Position numbers and translations under genes: made by a program
Source: Ostreococcus lucimarinus
Lineage: Eukaryota
Assembly: GCA_000092065.1 (NCBI GenBank)
Contig: CP000593.1
Length of the DNA: 64,000 nt
Strand: one strand, 5' to 3'
Shown here: piece after piece, positions 10,634-64,000 of the stretch
Layout: each line of letters opens with the position of its first letter
Position numbering within the stretch: position 1 is the first letter of the stretch
Notes under the pieces: generated by a model
What the model was told of the DNA's origin: nothing
The model's database searches: none
The model's input: the letters and a program-made list of their open reading frames with translations, nothing else

Positions 10634-10796
10634 CTACGCACATCGATTTCAACATCGCCGTCAGTCGTTCGGTCAACAGAGTCAACGCCGCGCCGCGTTC
10701 GCGCGAAATCCAACAGATCACCGTCACCGCGCATCTCTCACGCGCCGCCGTGACGCGCGAAACCGCGATGTATCGACGAAACGATCGTACACGCAC
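10634..10796 (-). other. CCT6: Intron of CCT6 (163 nt, phase 1)
   Basis: The donor is GGAG|GTGCGTGT. An ACTGAC branch-like motif lies ~30 nt before the acceptor tgcgtAG. Splicing joins ...KMLVDGAGG to LKLTKDG..., exactly as in CCT-zeta orthologues. The summed exon lengths, 154 + 1451 = 1605 nt, are divisible by 3. Confidence 0.85.
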
Positions 10797-13567: not shown

Positions 13568-14181
13568 GCTGCGGCGTCCGCCGCGCGGGCCGTCGAGGCT
13601 GGGCGGCGTTCTGCTGATACTCACACTGTTTACCCATACGAAGACACATACTCTTGAGTCATGAACCGTCGACGAAACGCACGCGTCGACGCATCCTCGC
13701 GAAGACCCCAGGACGGCGGCGGCGCCATTCTTCGACGGTCAAAGGTGCGCCCGCGCGCGGCGAACGACGCGCGCGCGACGGCGATCGACGGACGCGGCGG
13801 TGGGAAATATTCGCGCGCGTCGCGGCGCGCGCGCGAGGGCGCGCGACGACGCGAGGGCGAGGCGATGCGGGCGCCGCGCGATCGATCGCGGACGACGATC
13901 GATCGCGGACGGCGCGCGGACGACGATCGGACGCGGTGACGCCGCGATGCGACGCGCGAGGCGTCGGTCGCGGATGGAAACGATCGGGAGGAATACGCGC
14001 GCGATGGATCGGGCGGCGCGGGACGCGCGCGAGGGTCGCGAGCGAGGGGGGGGGGCGAGGTTGACGATCGCGATCCGATGGCGGCGCGATGGCGGGAGGT
14101 TTGGACGCGGGACGAGGCGAGACGAGAGGAAGGGGGACTGACGATGCGCGCGTGGCTCGAAACAGTTGAAATAAACGCACA

Positions 14182-15585
14182 ATGTCTGAAGGCAAGGAAC
14201 ATCTTTCCATCGTGATCTGCGGTCACGTCGATTCCGGTAAGTCGACGACGACCGGTCGCTTGTTATTCGAGCTCGGGGGTATCCCGGAGCGCGAACTCGA
14301 AAAGCTTCGCGCCGAAGCCGATGCGCTCGGTAAGTCTTCTTTCGCGTTCGCGTTCTACATGGATCGCCAAAAGGAAGAGCGTGAGCGTGGTGTGACGATT
14401 TCTTGCACGACCAAGGAATTCTTCACGGACAAGTGGCACTACACCATCATCGACGCCCCGGGTCACCGCGATTTCATCAAGAACATGATTTCCGGCGCGG
14501 CGCAAGCCGATGTGGCGCTTCTCATGGTGCCGGCGGACGGTAACTTCACGGTCGCCATCCAAAAGGGTAACCACAAGGCTGGTGAAGTCCAAGGCCAAAC
14601 GCGCCAGCACGCGCGTCTTCTCAACTTGCTCGGCGTCAAGCAGCTCATTTGCGGCATCAACAAGATGGATTGCGACATGGCTGGCTACAAGCAAGAGCGT
14701 TACGAAGAAATTCGCAACGAAATGAAGAACATGTTGATCAAGGTCGGCTGGAAGAAGGATTACGTCGAGAAGAGCGTCCCGGTCCTCCCGATCTCTGGCT
14801 GGAACGGCGACAACTTGTTGTCCAAGTCCGCGAAGATGCCGTGGTGGAACGGCGTCGACGTCGAAGACTACATGGGCGGCGGCAAGAAGTTCCACATCGA
14901 CTGCCTCCTCAACGTCCTCAACGACATGGTCGACAAGCCGGACCGCAACACGGAAGCCGCCATGCGCCTTCCGATTTCCGGTGTCTACAAGATCAAGGGT
15001 GTCGGTGATGTCCTCGCCGGTCGCGTCGAGCAAGGTCTCGTCAAGCCGGGTGAAGACGTCGTCTTCCTCCCGACCCACACCTCCTCCAACCCGTGCGGTG
15101 GTAAGGTGTTCACCGTCGAAATGCACCACAAGCGCGTCGAAGCCGCCGCGCCGGGTGACAACGTCGGTATGAACATCAAGGGTCTCGACAAGCTCAACAT
15201 GCCGCGCACCGGTGACGTGATGATCTACAAGAAGGACACCTCCCTCGCCCCGTGCAAGGAGTTCACCGCGCAAATCCAAACCTTGGACATTCCGGGTGAA
15301 CTCAAGGCGGGCTACAGCCCCATCGGTTTCGTCCGATGCGGCCGCTCCGCGTGCAAGTTGACCGCGCTCAACTTCAAGGTTGGCAAGGAAACCGGCGGTA
15401 AGAAGCTCGAGTCCCCGATGTCGTTGAAGTCCAACGAAGTCGCCGAGTGCGTCTTCGAGCCGGTCCACCCGCTCGTCGTCGACTCCTTCAAGAAGTGCGA
15501 AGGTCTTTCCCGCATCGCTTTCTTGGACGGTAACACCGCCGTCATGTTGGGTAAGATCACCAAGGTTGAGTACAAGGCCATCTAA
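14182..15585 (+). CDS. EFL: Elongation factor-like GTPase EFL (EF-1alpha paralogue)
   Basis: MSEGKEHLSIVICGHVDSGKSTTTGRLLFELGG... contains the G1-G4 motifs. The sequence diverges from canonical EF-1alpha in the EFL-typical way. The ATG has an aaacgcacaATG context. Confidence 0.9.
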   Translation: MSEGKEHLSIVICGHVDSGKSTTTGRLLFELGGIPERELEKLRAEADALGKSSFAFAFYMDRQKEERERGVTISCTTKEFFTDKWHYTIIDAPGHRDFIKNMISGAAQADVALLMVPADGNFTVAIQKGNHKAGEVQGQTRQHARLLNLLGVKQLICGINKMDCDMAGYKQERYEEIRNEMKNMLIKVGWKKDYVEKSVPVLPISGWNGDNLLSKSAKMPWWNGVDVEDYMGGGKKFHIDCLLNVLNDMVDKPDRNTEAAMRLPISGVYKIKGVGDVLAGRVEQGLVKPGEDVVFLPTHTSSNPCGGKVFTVEMHHKRVEAAAPGDNVGMNIKGLDKLNMPRTGDVMIYKKDTSLAPCKEFTAQIQTLDIPGELKAGYSPIGFVRCGRSACKLTALNFKVGKETGGKKLESPMSLKSNEVAECVFEPVHPLVVDSFKKCEGLSRIAFLDGNTAVMLGKITKVEYKAI

Positions 15586-17537: not shown

Positions 17538-17641
17538 CTGCGTTCCCCACAAAAACACGCCCTCGCCCGTTCGTCAGTCTTTCCCGTCGCGCGCGTCGTC
17601 GTTCCTCGTTTCGTTCGTTCGCCTTCGCTTCGCCGACGCGC
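17538..17641 (-). other. Intron of the aminopeptidase P gene (104 nt, phase 2, apparent GC-AG)
   Basis: Exon 1 ends ...CCG CAC TTT AG| and is followed by gcgcgtcgg. Exon 2 begins after ...ggggaacgcag|T GAG TAC. ACTGAC lies ~45 nt before the acceptor. Splicing gives PSQDPHF-S-EYVAAC, aligning with human PSGDAHQSEYIAPC. No GT donor is available in the required phase. Confidence 0.55.
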
Positions 17642-20176: not shown

Positions 20177-20306
20177 CTGCGCGCGCGTTCGGTCGTCGCG
20201 TCGTCTCGCGTCGTCAGTCGCGCGTTCGCGTCGTCCGTCGTCGAGCTGACGTTCAAACATTCAATCTCTCATCGCGCGCGCCGTCGCGCGCCGGCCCTCG
20301 ACGCAC
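20177..20306 (-). other. MLH1: Intron of MLH1 (130 nt, phase 0)
   Basis: The donor is GAG|GTGCGTCGAG. ACTGAC lies ~35 nt upstream of the acceptor gcgcgCAG|GTGATC. The apparent ORF start MFERQLDD... lies inside this intron. Confidence 0.75.
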
Positions 20307-52845: not shown

Positions 52846-54237
52846 CTACAACAAGAGTTTATTAAGCGCATCGTCCATGTCGTTCACCACCACCGTCGCC
52901 GTGGACGTGTCGGAGTCGAGCGGATAAATAAACGTCACCACGGCGGTGATGTCGTCGGCTCGCTCGTCGTGCTCTTGCCAACGCGAGAACGCGGCGCGCA
53001 CGATGGCGTGCGCGGCGCGTTCGGCGGCACCGGGCATGTTCTCCTCGTAAAATTTCTCCGCGATCGCCATCGTTTCCGCGCTGGACATGAACTCGAACAC
53101 GCCGTCGGAGGCGACGACGACGCACCGCGTCGACGGCTCGGCGTTCAAGTCAAACTCGCTCATCTCGGGCGTCGCGCTCACGCCGAGCGACTTCCCCACG
53201 GTGTCACCGATCGAGCGAGTGAACGCGCATCCGGGAAAACGATAACCAGCCATGAAAACGCGCGGCGGGTCGTCGCAATATTCCTCGTCCGAACCCGGTT
53301 CGCCGTCGCCAAAGTCCTCGTGCGCCTCGGTTTCGCCCAAAACCATGCCGATGGTGGCGAACGTCATCGGCGACGTCGCCTCCGCTTTCATCCGCGCGCG
53401 CTCGTCCGCGCGAAAGCACGTCTGATCATGCGTCAAATCTCTCACCTCCCATCGCCTCGTGTGTCGATTCCCGACCGCGACGCCCGCCGCGCGCTCGACG
53501 CCGACGACGCATCGCGAATCCCCGACGTTTCCCACGCGCACCACGCCTTCGTCATCAAACAGCGCCGTGATCGCCGTCGACCCCGAAAACGACGCGTTCT
53601 CCCCCATCTCTTTGCACACCACCGCGTTCACCGCCTCGAACGTCCGCGCGTACCCATCCCTCAGCGCCGCGCCTCCCCGCGTCTCCCTCGCCAGCGTCTC
53701 CGCGAACGTCGCCCGCGCGATTTGCGCGCACTCCTCCCCGTGCTTCCCGTGCCCATCGAACACCCCCACCAGCACCCGTCCCGTCTCTCGCCGCGCCACC
53801 GCATCGTTTCCCTCCCCATCGATCACCGCCTCCTCGTGCGCCATCTCCCTTCCCTCCCACGTCGCGCACGCGTCCTGATTCACGTGATGATCCTTGTGCG
53901 GATAACATCCCTCCTGGCAGCACCACGCCACGCGCGCCGCGAACCGCGCGCTGAGCGCATACGCCCGTTCGCTCGCCACCTCCCGTCGCGTCGCGTCCAT
54001 CTCGAACCTCAGCGGTCGCGCGCGCGGCGGCTTCGCGCGCGGTCGCCACGCCGTCGCCGCGCGTCCCGCGCGCGCGTTATCCGCTTTCGCGTCGGTCGCT
54101 GTCGGCGCGTTTGCGTCGATCGCGGGCGTCGCCGCGCGACGCGCCGGATCGAACGCGACCGTCGCGCGCGCCGCGTCGTGGCCATCGCGCGCGGGCGCGC
54201 GCTCGCGCGCGCGGTACGCGCCGGGCGCGAGCGCCAT
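52846..54237 (-). CDS. Protein phosphatase 2C (PPM family)
   Basis: VGVFDGHGKHGEECAQ, GSTAITALFDD, VGNVGDSRCVVG, SIGDTVGK, VVASDGVFEF and DDITAVVTF match PP2C motifs 1-11. The ORF starts with ATG. Confidence 0.8.
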   Translation of the reverse strand: MALAPGAYRARERAPARDGHDAARATVAFDPARRAATPAIDANAPTATDAKADNARAGRAATAWRPRAKPPRARPLRFEMDATRREVASERAYALSARFAARVAWCCQEGCYPHKDHHVNQDACATWEGREMAHEEAVIDGEGNDAVARRETGRVLVGVFDGHGKHGEECAQIARATFAETLARETRGGAALRDGYARTFEAVNAVVCKEMGENASFSGSTAITALFDDEGVVRVGNVGDSRCVVGVERAAGVAVGNRHTRRWEVRDLTHDQTCFRADERARMKAEATSPMTFATIGMVLGETEAHEDFGDGEPGSDEEYCDDPPRVFMAGYRFPGCAFTRSIGDTVGKSLGVSATPEMSEFDLNAEPSTRCVVVASDGVFEFMSSAETMAIAEKFYEENMPGAAERAAHAIVRAAFSRWQEHDERADDITAVVTFIYPLDSDTSTATVVVNDMDDALNKLLL

Positions 54238-54480
54238 GTGACGCGTTACCGGGACGCGGCGGCGCGTGGCGGCGGGGCGACCGACCGTATGTGCGTAAAC
54301 AGTACAGACGACATTTTCGACGCCCGCGCGTCGACGTCTCGAACGAATTCGTTCTCGAATACGACGTATGGAGGCGCAGTCAGCGCGCTGTTTGCGCGGT
54401 GCTTCAATACGGGCGGTGTGATTTAATTAGCGCCGACGGATCGCGCGATCGACGGCGCGCGCGCGACACGGCGACGCGCG

Positions 54481-54501
54481 ATGCGCGACCTGACGTCGAC
54501 G
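54481..54501 (+). CDS. EIF3E: eIF3 subunit E, exon 1 (7-codon micro-exon, MRDLTST)
   Basis: ATG CGC GAC CTG ACG TCG ACG is followed by the donor GTGCGA. Joined to exon 2 it gives MRDLTST|IAARLDAHLTLPLLEF, aligning with human [25 protein letters not shown]. Confidence 0.7.
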
Positions 54502-54776
54502 GTGCGACGCGACGCGACGCGAGCGCGACGCGACGCGCGACGGGAGACGACGGGAGACGACGGGCGGCGACGCGACGAGCGGACGGCGAACGCGAACGCG
54601 GCGACGCGGCGGCGGCAGGGTTTGCGCGATCGCGACGGCGACGCGGCGCGCGCGACGGCGGCGGACGCGCGAGGACGCGGGCGAAGAGTAACGCATCGCG
54701 AACGCGTCGCGGACGCGAAGGGCCGACGCGCCGCGGTCGAGCGCGAGGACTGACGGAGCGCGGGACGACGACGCAG
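54502..54776 (+). other. EIF3E: Intron of eIF3e (275 nt, phase 0)
   Basis: The donor is GTGCGA. CTGAC lies ~25 nt before the acceptor acgCAG|ATC. Read-through gives only R-rich sequence and a stop at 54753. Confidence 0.7.
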
Positions 54777-56018
54777 ATCGCGGCGCGGCTGGACGCGCAC
54801 CTGACGCTGCCGCTGCTGGAGTTCGCGCTCGCGGAGGGCACGCACGATGCGAAGTCGCTGCGAGAGGCGAAGCTGGCGACGCTGGTGAAGACGAAGATGT
54901 GCGATTGGGCGGAGGAGGCGCGCGCGGAGGCGAGCGGGTCGGGATCGGCGGCGGAGGCGAAGGCGAGGCGGGACGCGACGGTGGAGGCGCACGCGGCGCT
55001 GGGGAAGGCGGCGGCGCGGGCGGTGAAGTTCGCGAGCGATGGGGCGCTGATCAAGAACTTGCGACGGGATAAGGCGGCGAACGCGAAGTTCGCGGAGGAT
55101 AATCACGGGGTGACGAGCGCGGACGTGGACGCGCTGTACAAGTTTGCCAAGTTTGAGTACGAGTGCGGCGATTACGAAAACGCCTCGGAGCACTTGGGCG
55201 CGGTGCAGTTGTTGAGCGCGGACAACGAGCGGTGCGAGAGCGCGCTGTGGGGGAAGTTCGCGGCGGACATTTTGTTGCGGAACTGGGGCGGGGCTCTGGA
55301 CGACATGAATAGGTTGCGAGACGCGTTGGAGAGCAACGCGAGCACGAGCAACCTCGTCAAGATGAAGCAGCGCGCGTGGTTGTTGCATTACGCCCTGTTC
55401 GTCTTCTTCAACCACCCGAACGGTCGCAACTTGATCATCGACGTGTTGTTCCAGGAGCGATACATGCAAGCGGTGCAACAAGAGGCGCCGCATTTGTTGC
55501 GTTACCTCGCCGTCGCCATCGTCGCCAACAAGAAGCGCCGCAACATGCTCAAAGACTTAGTGAAGATTATCCAGAGCGACGTGTACGACGATCCCGCGCT
55601 CGACTTCGTCGTCGCGGCCTTCGTCGACTACGACTTCTCCAAGACGCAAGAGATGCTGAAGAAGTGCGACGCGATGATTGAAAAGGATTTCTTTTTAATC
55701 GGCTGCAAGGACGCGTTTGACGAAAACGCTCGACAGTACGTCATCGAAAACTACTGCAAGGTGAACAAGCGCATCGACATCGCCAACTTGGCGCAAATGC
55801 TCGGTATGCCCGCCGCCGACGTCGAGGCCACCATCGCGACTCTCATCCGCGGCAGTAAGCTCAACGCGCGAATCGATTCCGAAGCCGGCTTCGTGCACGT
55901 GCACGTCGAGAAGAAATCCGTCAACGAGCAAATCATCGAAAAGACCAAAGCCTTGCTGTCCAAGACCACCGCCCTCACGCAAGCCGTGTTGGCCAACACC
56001 CAGGCGCAGGCGTATTAA
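54777..56018 (+). CDS. EIF3E: eIF3 subunit E (Int-6), exon 2
   Basis: ...YKFAKFEYECGDYENASEHL...WGKFAADILLRNW...WLLHYALFVFFNHPNGRNLIIDV...HLLRYLAVAIVANKKRR...VIEKTKAL... is collinear with eIF3e, including the PCI domain. The long upstream ORF (54111-) has no in-frame Met before this block. Confidence 0.85.
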   Translation: MAARLDAHLTLPLLEFALAEGTHDAKSLREAKLATLVKTKMCDWAEEARAEASGSGSAAEAKARRDATVEAHAALGKAAARAVKFASDGALIKNLRRDKAANAKFAEDNHGVTSADVDALYKFAKFEYECGDYENASEHLGAVQLLSADNERCESALWGKFAADILLRNWGGALDDMNRLRDALESNASTSNLVKMKQRAWLLHYALFVFFNHPNGRNLIIDVLFQERYMQAVQQEAPHLLRYLAVAIVANKKRRNMLKDLVKIIQSDVYDDPALDFVVAAFVDYDFSKTQEMLKKCDAMIEKDFFLIGCKDAFDENARQYVIENYCKVNKRIDIANLAQMLGMPAADVEATIATLIRGSKLNARIDSEAGFVHVHVEKKSVNEQIIEKTKALLSKTTALTQAVLANTQAQAY

Positions 56019-56097
56019 CGACAATTTGTCATCGTCAACGCACCGGTATAGTTCGCGCCGCGCCGCGTCCCTCGCGTCACTTCGCCTCGCGCGCGCG

Positions 56098-56475
56098 ATG
56101 TCCCCGCCCCTCCGTCGCCTCGCGCGCCTCGTCCCGCGCGTCGCCGACGCGCGCGCGTTCGCGTCCGGCGCGGGCAAAGACGTCGTCCGCCGCGACTCGA
56201 GCGACGTCGCGTCGTCGTCGTCGTCGTCGGACGCCAATCCTTGGCGACCGGTGGTGGACCGCGAGACGCGGCGCGTGTACTTTTGGAATCCTCGCACCGG
56301 CGAAACCTCCGCGGTCGGCGCGCCGCGCCCCGCGACGGAATTTTTAGCGGACGATCCAGGCGCGTCCGCGCGCGAGGGAATCGGGACGCAGATCGGGTCG
56401 GCGTTCGCGATGGGCGCGGGCGCGTCCCTCGGTTTCGCGGCGGTCGCCGTCGCGGCGAGAATCGCGTTCGGTTGA
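56098..56475 (+). CDS. Small protein with WW-like motif and C-terminal transmembrane anchor (hypothetical)
   Basis: MSPPLRRLARLVPRVADARAFAS looks like a presequence. PWRPVVDRETRRVYFWNPRTGETS fits W-x7-R-x-YFWN-x2-TGE-T, a WW-domain-like core. GTQIGSAFAMGAGASLGFAAVAVAARIAFG is a hydrophobic C-terminus. Confidence 0.45.
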   Translation: MSPPLRRLARLVPRVADARAFASGAGKDVVRRDSSDVASSSSSSDANPWRPVVDRETRRVYFWNPRTGETSAVGAPRPATEFLADDPGASAREGIGTQIGSAFAMGAGASLGFAAVAVAARIAFG

Positions 56476-60661: not shown

Positions 60662-63425
60662 TCACTCGAGCGACTTGGAGACGATCTCGAAGACGTTTTC
60701 GCTCAGACCCGTCTTGGCGGCGATGCGCTCGAGCTGCGCCTTCATCGCCGACGCGCGCGTCGGCTCGAATTTGCGCCAACGCGTAAACGCGGACACCATG
60801 CGAGAGGCGACTTGGCCGTTGAGATCGTCGAGCTCGAGGACGATGTCGGCGAGGAATTCGTAACCGGAGCCGTCGATGGCGTGAAAGTTGGTGGGAGAGG
60901 CGCAGAAACCACCGATGAGGGAGTACACTTTGTTGGGGTTCTTGATGTCGAAGGCGGAGCCGGCGGCGAGCGCGCGAACGTTGGCGAGGTTGTTCGGGAG
61001 CGACGACGCGGCTTGGATGCTGAGCCATTTGTTCATGACGAGCGGGTCGTGCGACCACTCGGCGTAAAACGCATCGATGGCTTTGATGCGTTCGTCGCAG
61101 TCTTTGCCGCTGAGCGCGCTCAGGGCGGCAATCTTATCCGTCATGTTGTCCGCGGCGACGTAGCGCTCGTACGTCATCGCGGCGATTTCCGGCGCGTCCA
61201 AATACGACAAATATCCGATGCACGCGTTTTTCAGCGATCGCGCGGCGCGATCGGCGGGTTCGTTCGAATACACCGCGGCGCTGTTCGCTTGCGCCGTGGC
61301 TTCCAACTCAGCGCGAAGCTCCGTGGCGAGCGTCTTCATGACAAAGTCGCGAGCGGCGTGCACGGCGGCGGGATCCACCGTGCCCTCTTCGAGCATGTCG
61401 CTCAGCTCGCCCTCGGAAGGCACCATCATGGCGCGCGCGATGAACGCCTTGTCCGCGTCGGCAGCCTTGGCGCCCGAAAGAATCGTGCGCATCGCCGCCG
61501 TGATGGCGTCGTTCATCTTGAATGACTGCTCGCCGCCCTTGATCAGATCCAGGCAGAGGTTTCTGAGCAGCGTCTGCCCAGCCTCCCATCGGTTGAACGC
61601 GTCCGAGTCGTTCGCCATGAGGAACAACAAGTCGTCTTGCGTCAAGTTGGTCGTCAAACGCACGGGCGCGCTGAAGTTGCGCAAGATGCTCGGCACGGGC
61701 TTGGCGTCGACGCCGGTGAAAGTGTACGTCGCCGAGGCTTGATCGAAACGAAGCACCGCCGTCGTGCCGTGGGATTTGCCGTCGATCGTGAGGTTCATGT
61801 CTGCACCGTCGGGACCAACGAGACCAACGGCGATCGGGCACAAGACCGGAACCTTGGAGTCTTGACCGGGCGTTTTCGGAACCACTTGCGAGCATTCGAG
61901 GGTGAACGTCTTCGCGGCGGCGTCGTAAGACCCGTTCGCGGTGACGCGCGGCGTACCCGCTTGGGAGTACCAGGGCTTGAACGTGGACAAGTCCGCACCG
62001 TTGGCGTCGCACATGGCGGCGAAGAAATCCTCCGTCGTCACCGCTTGACCGTCGTGACGTTCAAAGTACAAATCCATCCCCTTGCGGAACCCATCCTTGC
62101 CGAGGAGCGTCTCGTACATGCGCACGACTTCCGCTCCCTTTTCGTAAACTGTCACGGTGTAAAAGTTATCCATCTTAATGTACGATTCCCGGGCGAATCC
62201 GGTGCGCCATCGGACCCGCGTCTTGGGCGAATTGCGCCATGCGAAGGCGCGAGACGTCGCCGATGCGCTTGACGCCTCGCGAGTTCATATCCGCGCTGAA
62301 CTCTTGGTCTCTGTACACAGTCAGCCCTTCCTTGAGGGACAGTTGGAACCAATCACGACACGTCACACGGTTTCCAGTGTAGTTGTGAAAGTATTCGTGC
62401 GCCACGACACCTTCAATGGCGGCGTAATCGGCATCCGTGGCGCTCTGCGGCGTCGCCAACACGAGACGCGAGTTGAAAATGTTCAGCGACTTGTTCTCCA
62501 TGGCGCCCATGTTGAAATCGTCCACGGCGACGATGTTGAAAAGCTCCAAGTCGTACTCCAAACCATACGTGTCTTCGTCCCATTTCATGGATTTGATCAA
62601 GCTCGTCATCGCGTGCGCGCACTTGTCCAAGTTGTGCGTCTCGGTGAAGATGCGAAGCGTCACTTCTTTGCCCGTCATCGTCTTGAATTTATCCTCCACC
62701 ATCCCGAGATCACCCGCGACGAGCGCGAAAAGGTAACACGGTTTTGCCCACGGATCTTCCCACACGGTGAAGTGCTTACCACCCTCCAAATCTCCAGAAT
62801 CCACCAAGTTTCCGTTGCCGAGCAGCACCGGATACTTCGTCTTATCCGCCGTGATGCGCGTCGTGAATATCGACATCACATCCGGTCTATCTTGATAAAA
62901 CGTGATTCGTCGGAAACCTTCCGCCTCGCATTGCGTGCAAAAGTTCCCAGACGACTTATAAAGTCCCTCGAGCGCGGTGTTCTCTTGCGGCTTAATCGTC
63001 GTCGTCACTCGCAAATCAAACGCCTCCGTCGGCAGCGCGCGCAGCGTGATCCCCTTCCCCGTCCGTTCGTACGTCGTGAATTTCGCGCCGTCCACCTCGA
63101 TCGCCGCCAACTCCACCGATTCATCGCCGTTCAGGAACAACGATTTCCCATTCGCATCGTTCGCCGGTCGAACTCGAATCGTCGACGTCACCGTCGTCGT
63201 CGCCTCCCCGAGCTCAAAGTCCAAATTCACCCTTTCGAACGCGTACGCCGGTCGCTCGTAATCCTTCAGATATATCGTCTTCGGCGCCTCCGTCGGCGTC
63301 TCCGTCGCCGTCGTCATCGCGCGCGGCTTCACCGCGCTCGTTCGCGACGTCGCGTTCGATGGTTTCGGTCGTGACGTCAGCGCTCGAAACGCCGCGCTCG
63401 CGACGCCTCGCGCGCTCGATCGCAT
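60662..63425 (-). pseudogene. pepN: Aminopeptidase N (M1 family, bacterial/plastid PepN-like) split into two frames by a 1-nt indel near 62176-62190; either a sequencing error or a pseudogene
   Basis: ORF 62175..63545 gives ...[37 protein letters not shown]... (HEXXH+E) ...[16 protein letters not shown] and then stops. ORF 60662..62173 in the neighbouring frame gives (ESYIK)MDNFYTVTVYEKGAEVVRMYETLLG.... Deleting one nt in cgcCCGGGaatcg yields [14 protein letters not shown], collinear with E. coli PepN [14 protein letters not shown]. The ATG at 63425 precedes a transit-peptide-like region. Confidence 0.7.
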
Positions 63426-63698
63426 CGTCGGCGCCGACGCTCGCTCGGGCGTCGTCTCGGGGATTCGTCGCGGCGCGCGCGAGCGTCCGGGCGCGCGTCG
63501 TCGTCGCGCTGTGCGGCGCCGAGCGCGACTGCGAGCGAAAAGCACACTTTCCAGCGCTTCAAAACGCGGCGACGCGGCGCGCGTCGCGTCGAGCGCGACC
63601 GCGGCGCGCGCGCGCGTCGCGAAGGCTTTATAACGGGCGCGCGCGGCGTCGGCGCGCGGAATCGCCGCGCGACGCGCGCGAAAGACGGCGAAACGTCG

Positions 63699-64000
63699 AT
63701 GGTGGAAAACTCGTCCGCGACGGGGACGACTCGAGAAACGTACGAAAGCGCCAAGCGCGCGCGCGAAGACGCGCGAACGGAGATCGCCATGGATGCCGTG
63801 CGCCGCGCGGGCGACGCAGACGCGTCAACGAGCGCGACGGTGAGGGATGGGGAGGTGTTTTCGAAGAATTTGTACTTTGAGCACCCGTCGACGACGGCGC
63901 GAAGCGCGAGAGCGACGGAAGACGCGATGCGAGCGCGCGGCGTGCGCGTGGTGCGAGGGGCAGATGTGCCCAAAATCGTGACGACGTTCGAGGAGGCGTC
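63699..64000 (+). CDS. DEAD-box RNA helicase (DDX5/Dbp2-like), N-terminal part; continues beyond the window
   Basis: MVENSS...[50 protein letters not shown] matches the conserved pre-Q-motif block FEKNFY.EHP...E.E.YR....I.V.G...PKPV..F.EA. It is open to the window end. Confidence 0.6.

What the first reader, a model, noticed from the sequence alone, without database searches (positions are those of the whole stretch)
54481..54776. eIF3e starts with a 7-codon micro-exon that ORF-based annotation would miss
The conserved eIF3e body begins at IAARLDAHLTLPLLEF with no in-frame Met for more than 600 nt upstream. A 21-nt exon (MRDLTST) 275 nt upstream, ending in the donor GTGCGA, splices in phase 0 to acgCAG|ATC. 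That reconstitutes MRDLTSTIAARLDAHLTLPLLEF, which is residue-for-residue collinear with the human N-terminus. Without this exon the gene would be annotated with a bogus 200-aa R-rich N-terminus or a truncated start.
Basis: partly seen in the sequence, partly recalled or inferred. Interest (0 to 1): 0.6.

Follow-up and report, generated by a model that had tools for sequence, protein, structure and literature searches.

The report
eIF3e first exon: 7 codons, already annotated

Summary
ATG 54481-54501 (MRDLTST) is followed by donor GTGCGA, a 275-nt intron with the branch motif GACTGACG, and acceptor CAG|ATC at 54776/54777, in phase 0.

The spliced 420-aa protein is identical over its full length to XP_001420993.1 / XP_001422902.1 of Ostreococcus lucimarinus CCE9901. 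The model is therefore already public and the window is almost certainly from that species.

Three independent lines support the splice:
- About ten orthologous lineages keep an ATG-initiated 7-14-codon exon with a GT(G/A)CG donor and an intron at the same phase-0 position.
- An MMETSP transcript-derived protein (MTDLTAT|IAARVEAHL) equals the splice predicted from its genomic locus.
- In close strains both exons are invariant, while the intron carries substitutions and frame-breaking indels.

ORF callers do produce the predicted bogus products of 542 and 574 aa and a truncated one of 373 aa. Start-proximal introns with the same signals are common in this window, so nothing here is unusual.

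One by-product may be new. A heptamer, AGGGTTT (54617-54623), equals one unit of the Mamiellales telomere repeat. It is conserved in sense orientation in the eIF3e 5' transcribed region of 16 of 17 representative loci. It lies in the intron in Ostreococcus and in the 5'UTR in Micromonas-like relatives.

The parts
54422..54432 (+). AT-rich TATA-like element (TTTAATTAGCG), about 50 nt upstream of the ATG. It is the putative core promoter in the 243-nt divergent intergenic region shared with the PP2C gene, whose minus-strand ATG is at 54237.
   Evidence: Inferred only. It is the only 8/8 A+T octamer in the region scanned, 60-330 nt upstream of the AGGGTTT heptamer. Comparable AT-rich boxes occur at the same place in L003, L009 and L001. 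No TSS data are available.
54481..54501 (+). Coding part of exon 1: ATG CGC GAC CTG ACG TCG ACG = MRDLTST.
   Evidence: The D-L-T residues align to human eIF3e D5-L6-T7 and to Pfam eIF3_N profile position 1 onward. The exon is identical in close strains. Orthologs keep M(x)nDLT.. with synonymous codon changes (GAC/GAT, CTG/CTC/TTA, ACG/ACC) and in-frame length changes of 7, 8, 9 and 14 codons.
54502..54776 (+). Phase-0 GT-AG spliceosomal intron of 275 nt.
   Evidence: It evolves as non-coding DNA: 12-16 mismatches and 27-37 gap columns against close strains, with lengths of 275/275/284/286/266 nt, while the flanking exons are invariant. An intron at the same position is found in all Ostreococcus-like loci and in L046 and L049.
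54502..54508 (+). 5' splice site GTGCGAC.
   Evidence: It matches the atypical O. lucimarinus non-chromosome-2 consensus GTGCGTG (PMC2483917). The same GTGCG donor is used by the CCT-zeta and MLH1 introns and by the putative 5'UTR intron of the EF-1alpha-type gene in this window.
54617..54623 (+). Conserved heptamer AGGGTTT, equal to one unit of the Mamiellales telomere repeat. It is a candidate cis-regulatory element inside the intron.
   Evidence: It is the only internal intron sequence conserved across all 20 distinct Ostreococcus-like intron alleles. In 16 of 17 representative loci there is one sense copy in the eIF3e 5' region, a rate of 2.6/kb against 0.049/kb elsewhere. The telomere repeat is given as AAACCCT in PMC5455958.
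54748..54755 (+). Branch-point motif GACTGACG, with the branch A 24 nt before the acceptor.
   Evidence: It is identical to the extended branch consensus found in 66.5% of EST-confirmed non-chromosome-2 introns of O. lucimarinus (PMC2483917).
54774..54776 (+). 3' splice site CAG.
   Evidence: The acceptor [CT]AG directly precedes [IVL]xxx[LMV][DE]AHL in every ortholog.
54777..56018 (+). Exon 2: residues 8-420 of eIF3e plus the TAA stop.
   Evidence: Pfam eIF3_N and PCI domains. Alignment to human eIF3e chains in PDB at 3e-92.

Best explanation
This is the 5' end of the eIF3e (translation initiation factor 3 subunit E) gene of Ostreococcus lucimarinus or a near-identical strain.

Transcription probably starts a few tens of bases upstream of 54481; that step is inferred. 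Translation starts at ATG 54481. After seven codons (MRDLTST) a canonical U2-type intron of 275 nt is removed. Its signals are donor GTGCGAC, branch GACTGACG and acceptor CAG. Splicing joins T7 in phase 0 to I8 (IAARLDAHL...) and gives a 420-aa protein with a complete eIF3_N domain and a PCI domain.

If the intron is retained, the exon-1 frame ends at a TGA inside the branch motif and yields a 90-aa arginine-rich peptide. Splicing is therefore obligatory for a functional product.

The architecture, a very short first coding exon followed by a 5'-proximal intron with strong signals, is the normal pattern for the few intron-containing genes outside chromosome 2 in this intron-poor genome.
For: - Sequence features are exactly as stated.
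- The spliced protein equals XP_001420993.1 / XP_001422902.1 / ABO99286.1 / ABP01261.1 of O. lucimarinus CCE9901 by exact-sequence look-up (sequence P0121).
- Pfam eIF3_N starts at residue 3, which is profile position 1. The protein aligns without an N-terminal gap to human eIF3e in PDB.
- Orthologous loci give MTTTDLAST, MAEDLTSA, MTDLTAT, MGDLTAT, MADLTAT, MADLTTT, MANEDLTIE, MTTTDLTAQ, MANVTAQ, MASDVGE, MSQIDSKQYDITPK and MASFDVKKYDLTAT. Each is followed by a GT(G/A)CG donor and an intron at the same phase-0 site.
- The transcript-derived MMETSP protein P0153 begins MTDLTATIAARVEAHL, which is exactly the predicted splice of L004/L005.
- In close strains the exons are invariant while the intron has substitutions and indels that are not multiples of three.
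- Donor and branch motifs match the published EST-derived consensus for this species (PMC2483917). They also match other introns in the window: CCT-zeta, MLH1 and the putative 5'UTR intron of the EF-1alpha-type gene.
Against: - No RNA read or EST from this exact locus was examined. The junction is shown at transcript level only in a 69%-identical ortholog.
- The exon coordinates of the GenBank CDS could not be fetched. Only identity of the protein was shown.
- The TSS and the length of the 5'UTR are unknown.
Confidence: 0.97

Rival explanations
1. There is no splicing, and translation starts at the first in-frame ATG of the long ORF (54897, KTKM). This gives a 373-aa eIF3e without the N-terminal 47 residues.
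For: ORF callers produce exactly this product. P0122 (373 aa) was seen on 182 contigs.
Against: - It would delete residues that align to human eIF3e 5-49 and to the first third of Pfam eIF3_N.
- The IAARLDAHLTLPLLEF segment upstream of that Met is conserved in all orthologs.
- The transcript-derived ortholog starts at the short exon.
Confidence: 0.01
2. The long open frame upstream of 54777 is translated, from a non-AUG start or as annotated by ORF callers. This gives eIF3e an arginine-rich N-terminal extension of 120-220 aa.
For: The frame is open for 666 nt. Products of 542-574 aa are in public metagenome protein sets.
Against: - There is no ATG in that frame.
- The region differs between near-identical strains by indels of +9 and +11 nt and by many substitutions, while the flanking exons are invariant.
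- The extensions of P0001, P0002 and P0003 are not alignable.
- The open frame is expected by chance in stop-poor CGCGAC-rich sequence (78% G+C).
Confidence: 0.005
3. A different 5' exon is used, for example one starting at ATG 54289 or 54368, or a different donor or acceptor pair.
For: Two further ATGs lie upstream in the intergenic region.
Against: - ATG 54368 runs into a stop after 17 codons, and the 54289 frame ends at 54426. Neither restores a conserved eIF3e N-terminus. Whether they have in-frame donors was not examined in detail.
- They lie upstream of the TATA-like box.
- Only the 54481 exon is conserved in orthologs, and only it reproduces the deposited protein.
Confidence: 0.015

Closest known systems
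O. lucimarinus CCE9901 gene model XP_001420993.1 / XP_001422902.1 (UniRef name: Eukaryotic translation initiation factor 3 subunit E)
   Different: Nothing at protein level. The record's exon coordinates could not be inspected.
Human eIF3e / INT6 (PDB 5a5t, 6zmw, 6zvj and others)
   Same: The two are collinear from the DLT motif to the PCI domain (query 3-408 vs human 5-419, E about 3e-92).
   Different: - The alignment columns show roughly 40% identity (my estimate from the alignment; no figure was computed).
- The algal protein is 2 residues shorter before the DLT motif.
- It lacks the human C-terminal tail.
Canonical non-chromosome-2 introns of O. lucimarinus (Irimia & Roy 2008, PMC2483917)
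   Same: The donor is GTGCG.. (published consensus GTGCGTG). The branch GACTGACG is exact and close to the acceptor. The acceptor is AG.
   Different: - At 275 nt it is longer than the annotated median of 111 nt given in that paper.
- Position +6 of the donor is A instead of T.
Plant telo box (AAACCCTA / TAGGGTTT) of translation-apparatus genes (Gaspin et al. 2010, PMC3022908; PMC2576244)
   Same: - The intronic AGGGTTT is one unit of the host's own telomere repeat.
- It lies in the 5' transcribed region (first intron or 5'UTR) of a translation-factor gene. This is the compartment where plant telo boxes are enriched.
   Different: - The eighth base is never the T/A required for the octamer.
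- There is no associated site II or TEF box.
- It sits at about +140 to +165 from the putative TSS, not at -50 to +50.
- The EF-1alpha-type gene in the same window lacks it.

Membership tests
eIF3 subunit E (eIF3e/INT6) | N-terminal eIF3_N domain (PF09440) present from its first position | tested here: met
   E = 1.6e-33; residues 3-133 match profile positions 1-132 of 133, but only when the 7-codon exon is included.
eIF3 subunit E (eIF3e/INT6) | C-terminal PCI domain (PF01399) | tested here: met
   E = 1.4e-12, residues 303-383.
eIF3 subunit E (eIF3e/INT6) | Full-length collinearity with experimentally characterised eIF3e | tested here: met
   phmmer vs PDB: human eIF3e chains, E about 3e-92, query 3-408 vs chain 5-419.
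eIF3 subunit E (eIF3e/INT6) | Incorporation into the eIF3 complex | not testable with these tools
   This needs biochemistry.
U2-type GT-AG spliceosomal intron (O. lucimarinus non-chromosome-2 class) | GTGCG-type 5' splice site | tested here: met
   GTGCGAC at 54502. The consensus GTGCGTG is from PMC2483917.
U2-type GT-AG spliceosomal intron (O. lucimarinus non-chromosome-2 class) | ACTGAC / GACTGACG branch motif near the 3' end, followed by YAG | tested here: met
   GACTGACG at 54748-54755, 24 nt before the CAG.
U2-type GT-AG spliceosomal intron (O. lucimarinus non-chromosome-2 class) | Exon-exon junction observed in RNA | tested here: inconclusive
   The junction is shown for the ortholog, where MMETSP transcript protein P0153 equals the predicted splice of L004/L005. 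No transcript from this species could be retrieved; one search found no contig record.
Micro-exon in the strict sense (internal exon of about 30 nt or less) | Flanked by introns on both sides | tested here: not met
   It is the first coding exon. It begins with the start codon and is preceded by promoter/5'UTR sequence, not by an acceptor. Only its coding part is 21 nt.
Plant-type telo box | Octamer AAACCCTA / TAGGGTTT | tested here: not met
   The heptamer AGGGTTT is invariant, but the preceding base is C or G in the 12 Ostreococcus-like alleles shown, and also in the four Micromonas-like loci. It is never T.
Plant-type telo box | Location in the 5' flank, 5'UTR or first introns of translation-related genes | tested here: met
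   It lies in the first intron (Ostreococcus) or the 5'UTR (L033, L047, L048, L049) of eIF3e. The plant distribution is from PMC3022908 and PMC2576244.
Plant-type telo box | Topological association with site II (TGGGCY) or TEF boxes | tested here: not met
   A site II motif lies within -350..+150 of the heptamer in only 2 of 14 loci. The TEF box was not searched.
Plant-type telo box | General presence in translation-apparatus genes of the same genome | tested here: inconclusive
   The only other translation gene in the window, the EF-1alpha/EFL-type GTPase at 14183-15582, has no heptamer in its 5' region or its putative 5'UTR intron. No ribosomal-protein genes were available.

The most novel reading that the evidence does not exclude
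The intron is kept partly because it houses a regulatory element. The heptamer AGGGTTT is one unit of the Mamiellales telomere repeat. It has been held in sense orientation about 140-165 nt downstream of the putative eIF3e core promoter across Ostreococcus and Micromonas-like lineages (49-100% protein identity). That distance is preserved whether the position falls in the first intron or in the 5'UTR.

This would be a telo-box-like, DNA-level or co-transcriptional element of a translation-factor gene in prasinophyte algae. It would push telomere-motif gene regulation back before land plants. It would also give a concrete function to one of the introns that O. lucimarinus retains preferentially in highly expressed genes.
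Probability: 0.3. Interest if true: 0.45.

Novelty: already known. Interest (0 to 1): 0.12.

Why it matters
For the finding as given, very little. It confirms that a public eukaryotic gene model is right. It also shows concretely that prokaryote-style ORF calling on marine metagenomes mis-annotates this gene: hundreds of database entries carry bogus R-rich N-termini or a 47-residue truncation.

The side observation is a small but testable lead on two questions. One is how promoters work in the most compact free-living eukaryotic genomes. The other is why some introns are retained there.

Tried and rejected
- **Introner or repeat element.** I tested whether the intron is a repeated 'introner'-type element. 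blastn of the intron against the window found only low-complexity CGCGAC-type matches and no second copy.
- **Intronic snoRNA or other known RNA.** Rfam at E <= 10 gave only sub-threshold noise. Nothing but the heptamer and the splice signals is conserved in the intron.
- **Motif enrichment in the window.** AGGGTTT/AAACCCT is not enriched window-wide: 4 observed against 4.8 expected. The other three copies are Gly-Leu or Gly-Phe codons inside the CCT-zeta CDS.
- **Other start-proximal micro-exons.** A strict scan for further ATG micro-exons found only eIF3e. A looser scan of ACTGAC sites then found ordinary 5'-proximal introns in other genes.
- **NCBI locus retrieval.** The exact-protein look-up for contigs returned nothing on record.
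- **Fixed TATA-to-motif spacing.** The spacing is only approximate, about 170-240 nt in most lineages, and some lineages have no clear AT-rich box.
- **Site II association.** This was tested and is absent.
- **Literature.** Searches found no paper linking telo boxes or AAACCCT motifs to Ostreococcus gene regulation.

Full report
**1. The observation**

- ATGCGCGACCTGACGTCGACG (54481-54501) encodes MRDLTST and is followed by GTGCGA.
- The stretch 54502-54776 is 275 nt and ends GACGCAG.
- ATC at 54777 opens the frame that runs to the TAA at 56016-56018.
- In that frame the ORF is open back to 54111 (666 nt) without any ATG. The first in-frame Met is at 54897.
- The intron length is 2 mod 3, so the two exons are in different genomic frames and no single ORF can join them.

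**2. What the gene is**

The spliced 420-aa product carries Pfam eIF3_N (E = 1.6e-33) and PCI. The eIF3_N match starts at residue 3, which is profile position 1, so the short exon supplies the start of the domain.

Against PDB sequences, residues 3-408 align to residues 5-419 of human eIF3e at E about 3e-92. There is no gap over DLTSTIAARLDAHLTLPLLEF / [21 protein letters not shown].

**3. It is already annotated**

An exact-sequence look-up found the 420-aa spliced protein in NCBI as XP_001420993.1, XP_001422902.1, ABO99286.1 and ABP01261.1. It is listed as 'predicted protein [Ostreococcus lucimarinus CCE9901]', and UniRef names it eIF3 subunit E (sequence).

The same 90% cluster holds ORF-caller products from metagenomes.
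- Products of 542, 574, 557, 515, 512, 468 and 463 aa carry arginine-rich read-through N-termini.
- A 373-aa product starts at the internal Met and was seen on 182 contigs.

**4. Comparative evidence for the splice**

I fetched orthologous loci from metagenome and Logan assemblies. Every Ostreococcus-like locus with enough upstream sequence has the same architecture:
- an ATG-initiated short exon;
- a GT(G/A)CG donor;
- an intron of 130-294 nt with ACTGAC placed 24-44 nt before a YAG;
- then [IVL]xxx[LMV][DE]AHL in phase 0.

The exon-1 peptides are MRDLTST, MTTTDLAST, MAEDLTSA, MTDLTAT, MGDLTAT, MADLTAT, MADLTTT, MANEDLTIE, MTTTDLTAQ, MANVTAQ and MASDVGE.

The D-L-T codons differ synonymously between lineages (GAC/GAT, CTG/CTC/TTA, ACG/ACC). 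Length changes are whole codons.

Two more distant relatives keep the intron at the same site with 14-codon first exons. These are L046 (MSQIDSKQYDITPK|GTGCGA) and L049 (MASFDVKKYDLTAT|GTACGT). Three Micromonas-like loci (L033, L047, L048) have lost the intron and read ...[HY]DLTSELGK.LDRHL continuously.

**5. Transcript evidence**

Cluster 3 contains an MMETSP transcriptome ORF marked complete, P0153 (420 aa). It begins MTDLTATIAARVEAHLVLPLLEF. That is exactly the product of splicing ATGACGGATTTAACCGCGACG|GTGCGT...CAG|ATTGCCGCGCGGGTGGAG in the genomic loci L004/L005. The junction is thus seen in RNA of a 69%-identical ortholog. I could not retrieve transcripts of O. lucimarinus itself.

**6. 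Population-level evidence**

I compared the window with three near-identical strains, L003, L009 and L010.
- Exon 1 is 21/21 identical.
- The first 300 nt of exon 2 are 299-300/300 identical with no gaps.
- The intron has 12-16 mismatches and 27-37 gap columns, with lengths of 275, 275, 284 and 286 nt.

Indels of +9 and +11 nt in a region that would otherwise be an 'N-terminal extension' rule out coding.

**7. Splice signals are textbook for this species**

Irimia & Roy (PMC2483917) studied EST-confirmed O. lucimarinus introns outside chromosome 2. They report ACTGAC in 87% of them, GACTGACG in 66.5%, and the atypical 5' consensus GTGCGTG. This intron has GTGCGAC and an exact GACTGACG at 54748-54755.

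Other introns I found in the window use similar signals:

| Gene | Coordinates (strand) | Length | Phase | Donor |
|---|---|---|---|---|
| CCT-zeta | 10796..10634 (-) | 163 nt | 1 | GTGCGTG |
| MLH1 | 20306..20177 (-) | 130 nt | 0 | GTGCGTC |
| M24 aminopeptidase | 17641..17538 (-) | 104 nt | 2 | GCGCGT (apparent GC-AG) |
| EF-1alpha/EFL-type GTPase (putative 5'UTR intron) | 13745..14165 (+) | 421 nt | n/a | GTGCGCC |

Start-proximal introns are therefore ordinary here, and eIF3e is simply the shortest first coding exon. Lanier et al. (PMC2367439) showed that introns in this genome are enriched in highly expressed genes.

**8. Mechanism**

Shown:
- the sequence signals;
- the protein identity to the public model;
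- the conservation of the architecture;
- the orthologous transcript.

Inferred:
- The TSS lies shortly upstream of 54481, because a TATA-like TTTAATTA sits about 50 nt before the ATG.
- Splicing is obligatory, because the exon-1 frame continues into the intron for 90 codons and stops at the TGA inside the branch motif.

**9. Rejected ideas**

- The intron is not a repeated introner-like element.
- It matches no Rfam family.
- Nothing in it is conserved except the splice signals and one heptamer.

**10. Side observation: a conserved AGGGTTT**

*Conservation.* All 20 distinct Ostreococcus-like intron alleles contain exactly one AGGGTTT. It is in sense orientation, 70-117 nt after the donor, and sits in otherwise unalignable sequence. 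The window copy is at 54617-54623.

*Relatives.* In the intronless Micromonas-like loci L033, L047 and L048, the only copy in about 4.2 kb lies 46-72 nt upstream of the ATG, again in sense. L049 has one further copy about 2.4 kb away; the relevant copy lies 26 nt upstream of its ATG, also in sense.

*Enrichment.* Over 17 representative loci the eIF3e 5' regions hold 16 copies, or 2.6/kb. The remaining 122 kb holds 6 copies on both strands, or 0.049/kb.

*Position relative to the promoter.* In the four Micromonas-like loci a TATA box is followed about 30 nt later by CCCTCTT[TC], a pyrimidine-rich putative initiator. That element lies 142-157 nt upstream of the heptamer. In the O. lucimarinus-type loci the TATA-like box is 196 nt upstream. 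The element therefore seems to sit about +140 to +165 from the promoter, whether that position is 5'UTR or intron. This argues for a DNA-level or co-transcriptional role rather than a role in mature mRNA or in splicing.

*Relation to the plant telo box.* AAACCCT is the Mamiellales telomere repeat (PMC5455958). In plants, the telomere-derived telo box AAACCCTA is enriched in the 5'UTRs and first introns of translation-apparatus genes (PMC3022908, PMC2576244). The resemblance is suggestive, but membership fails on three counts:
- the eighth base is never right;
- site II motifs are absent;
- the EF-1alpha-type gene in the same window lacks the motif.

I found no paper describing this element.

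**11. Verdict**

The observation and its interpretation are correct, but already known and typical of the genome, so interest is low. The conserved heptamer is the only possibly new item. It is recorded as a lead, not a result.

Noticed in passing
window 54617-54623 (+); also L033:1399, L047:1436, L048:1455, L049:264, and all Ostreococcus-like loci: The heptamer AGGGTTT, one unit of the Mamiellales telomere repeat, is conserved in sense orientation in the eIF3e 5' transcribed region. It is intronic in Ostreococcus and in the 5'UTR in Micromonas-like relatives. The rate is 2.6/kb there against 0.049/kb elsewhere. It is telo-box-like but fails the strict octamer and the site II association.
   Followed up: partly
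L033, L047, L048, L049 (142-157 nt upstream of the heptamer): Micromonas-like eIF3e promoters share a TATA box followed about 30 nt later by CCCTCTT[TC]. This pyrimidine-rich putative initiator is reminiscent of TCT/TOP-type starts of translation genes. The O. lucimarinus-type promoter in the window lacks it.
   Followed up: partly
window 13745-14165 (+), upstream of the ATG at 14183: The EF-1alpha/EFL-type elongation-factor gene (14183-15582) appears to have a 421-nt 5'UTR intron. The donor is caaag|GTGCGCC, the branch is GACTGACG, and the acceptor aaaCAG lies 17 nt before the ATG. It contains GGAGGTTTGG, a one-G-shorter relative of the eIF3e heptamer.
   Followed up: partly
window 10634-10796 (-): The CCT-zeta chaperonin gene has a 163-nt phase-1 intron: exon 1 [12 protein letters not shown]...KMLVDGAG, donor G|GTGCGTG, branch GACTGACG, acceptor TAG|GT TTG AAG. 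ORF-based calling would truncate or extend this N-terminus too.
   Followed up: partly
window 17538-17641 (-): The M24 (Xaa-Pro aminopeptidase-like) gene seems to use a GC-AG intron of 104 nt in phase 2, with donor TTTAG|GCGCGT. Splicing restores ...DPHF-S-EYVAAC...
   Followed up: no
window 20177-20306 (-): MLH1 has a 130-nt phase-0 intron after a 32-codon first exon (…NRVAAGE|GTGCGTC … CAG|VIHRPSNALKELVEN). This is another 5'-proximal intron with the same signals.
   Followed up: partly
window ~62177-62195 (-): The M1 aminopeptidase gene is split over two overlapping ORFs (62178-63824 and 60665-62284). The split looks like a 1-nt frameshift in CGCCCGGGAATCG, where ..IRPESYIK.. is expected, and there are no splice signals nearby. 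It could be an assembly error or a real lesion.
   Followed up: no
whole eIF3e locus (54481-56018): The identical 420-aa protein has two RefSeq/GenBank accession pairs, so the gene is present twice in the O. lucimarinus assembly. This may reflect chromosome 21 being a chimera of chromosomes 9 and 13 (PMC2367439).
   Followed up: no
window 52846-54237 (-) and 56026-56475 (+): Gene order P450 - PP2C (divergent from eIF3e, sharing a 243-nt intergenic region) - eIF3e - small WW-domain protein is conserved in the related contig L001. PP2C and the WW-domain protein also flank eIF3e in L003, and the WW-domain protein follows it in L007.
   Followed up: no
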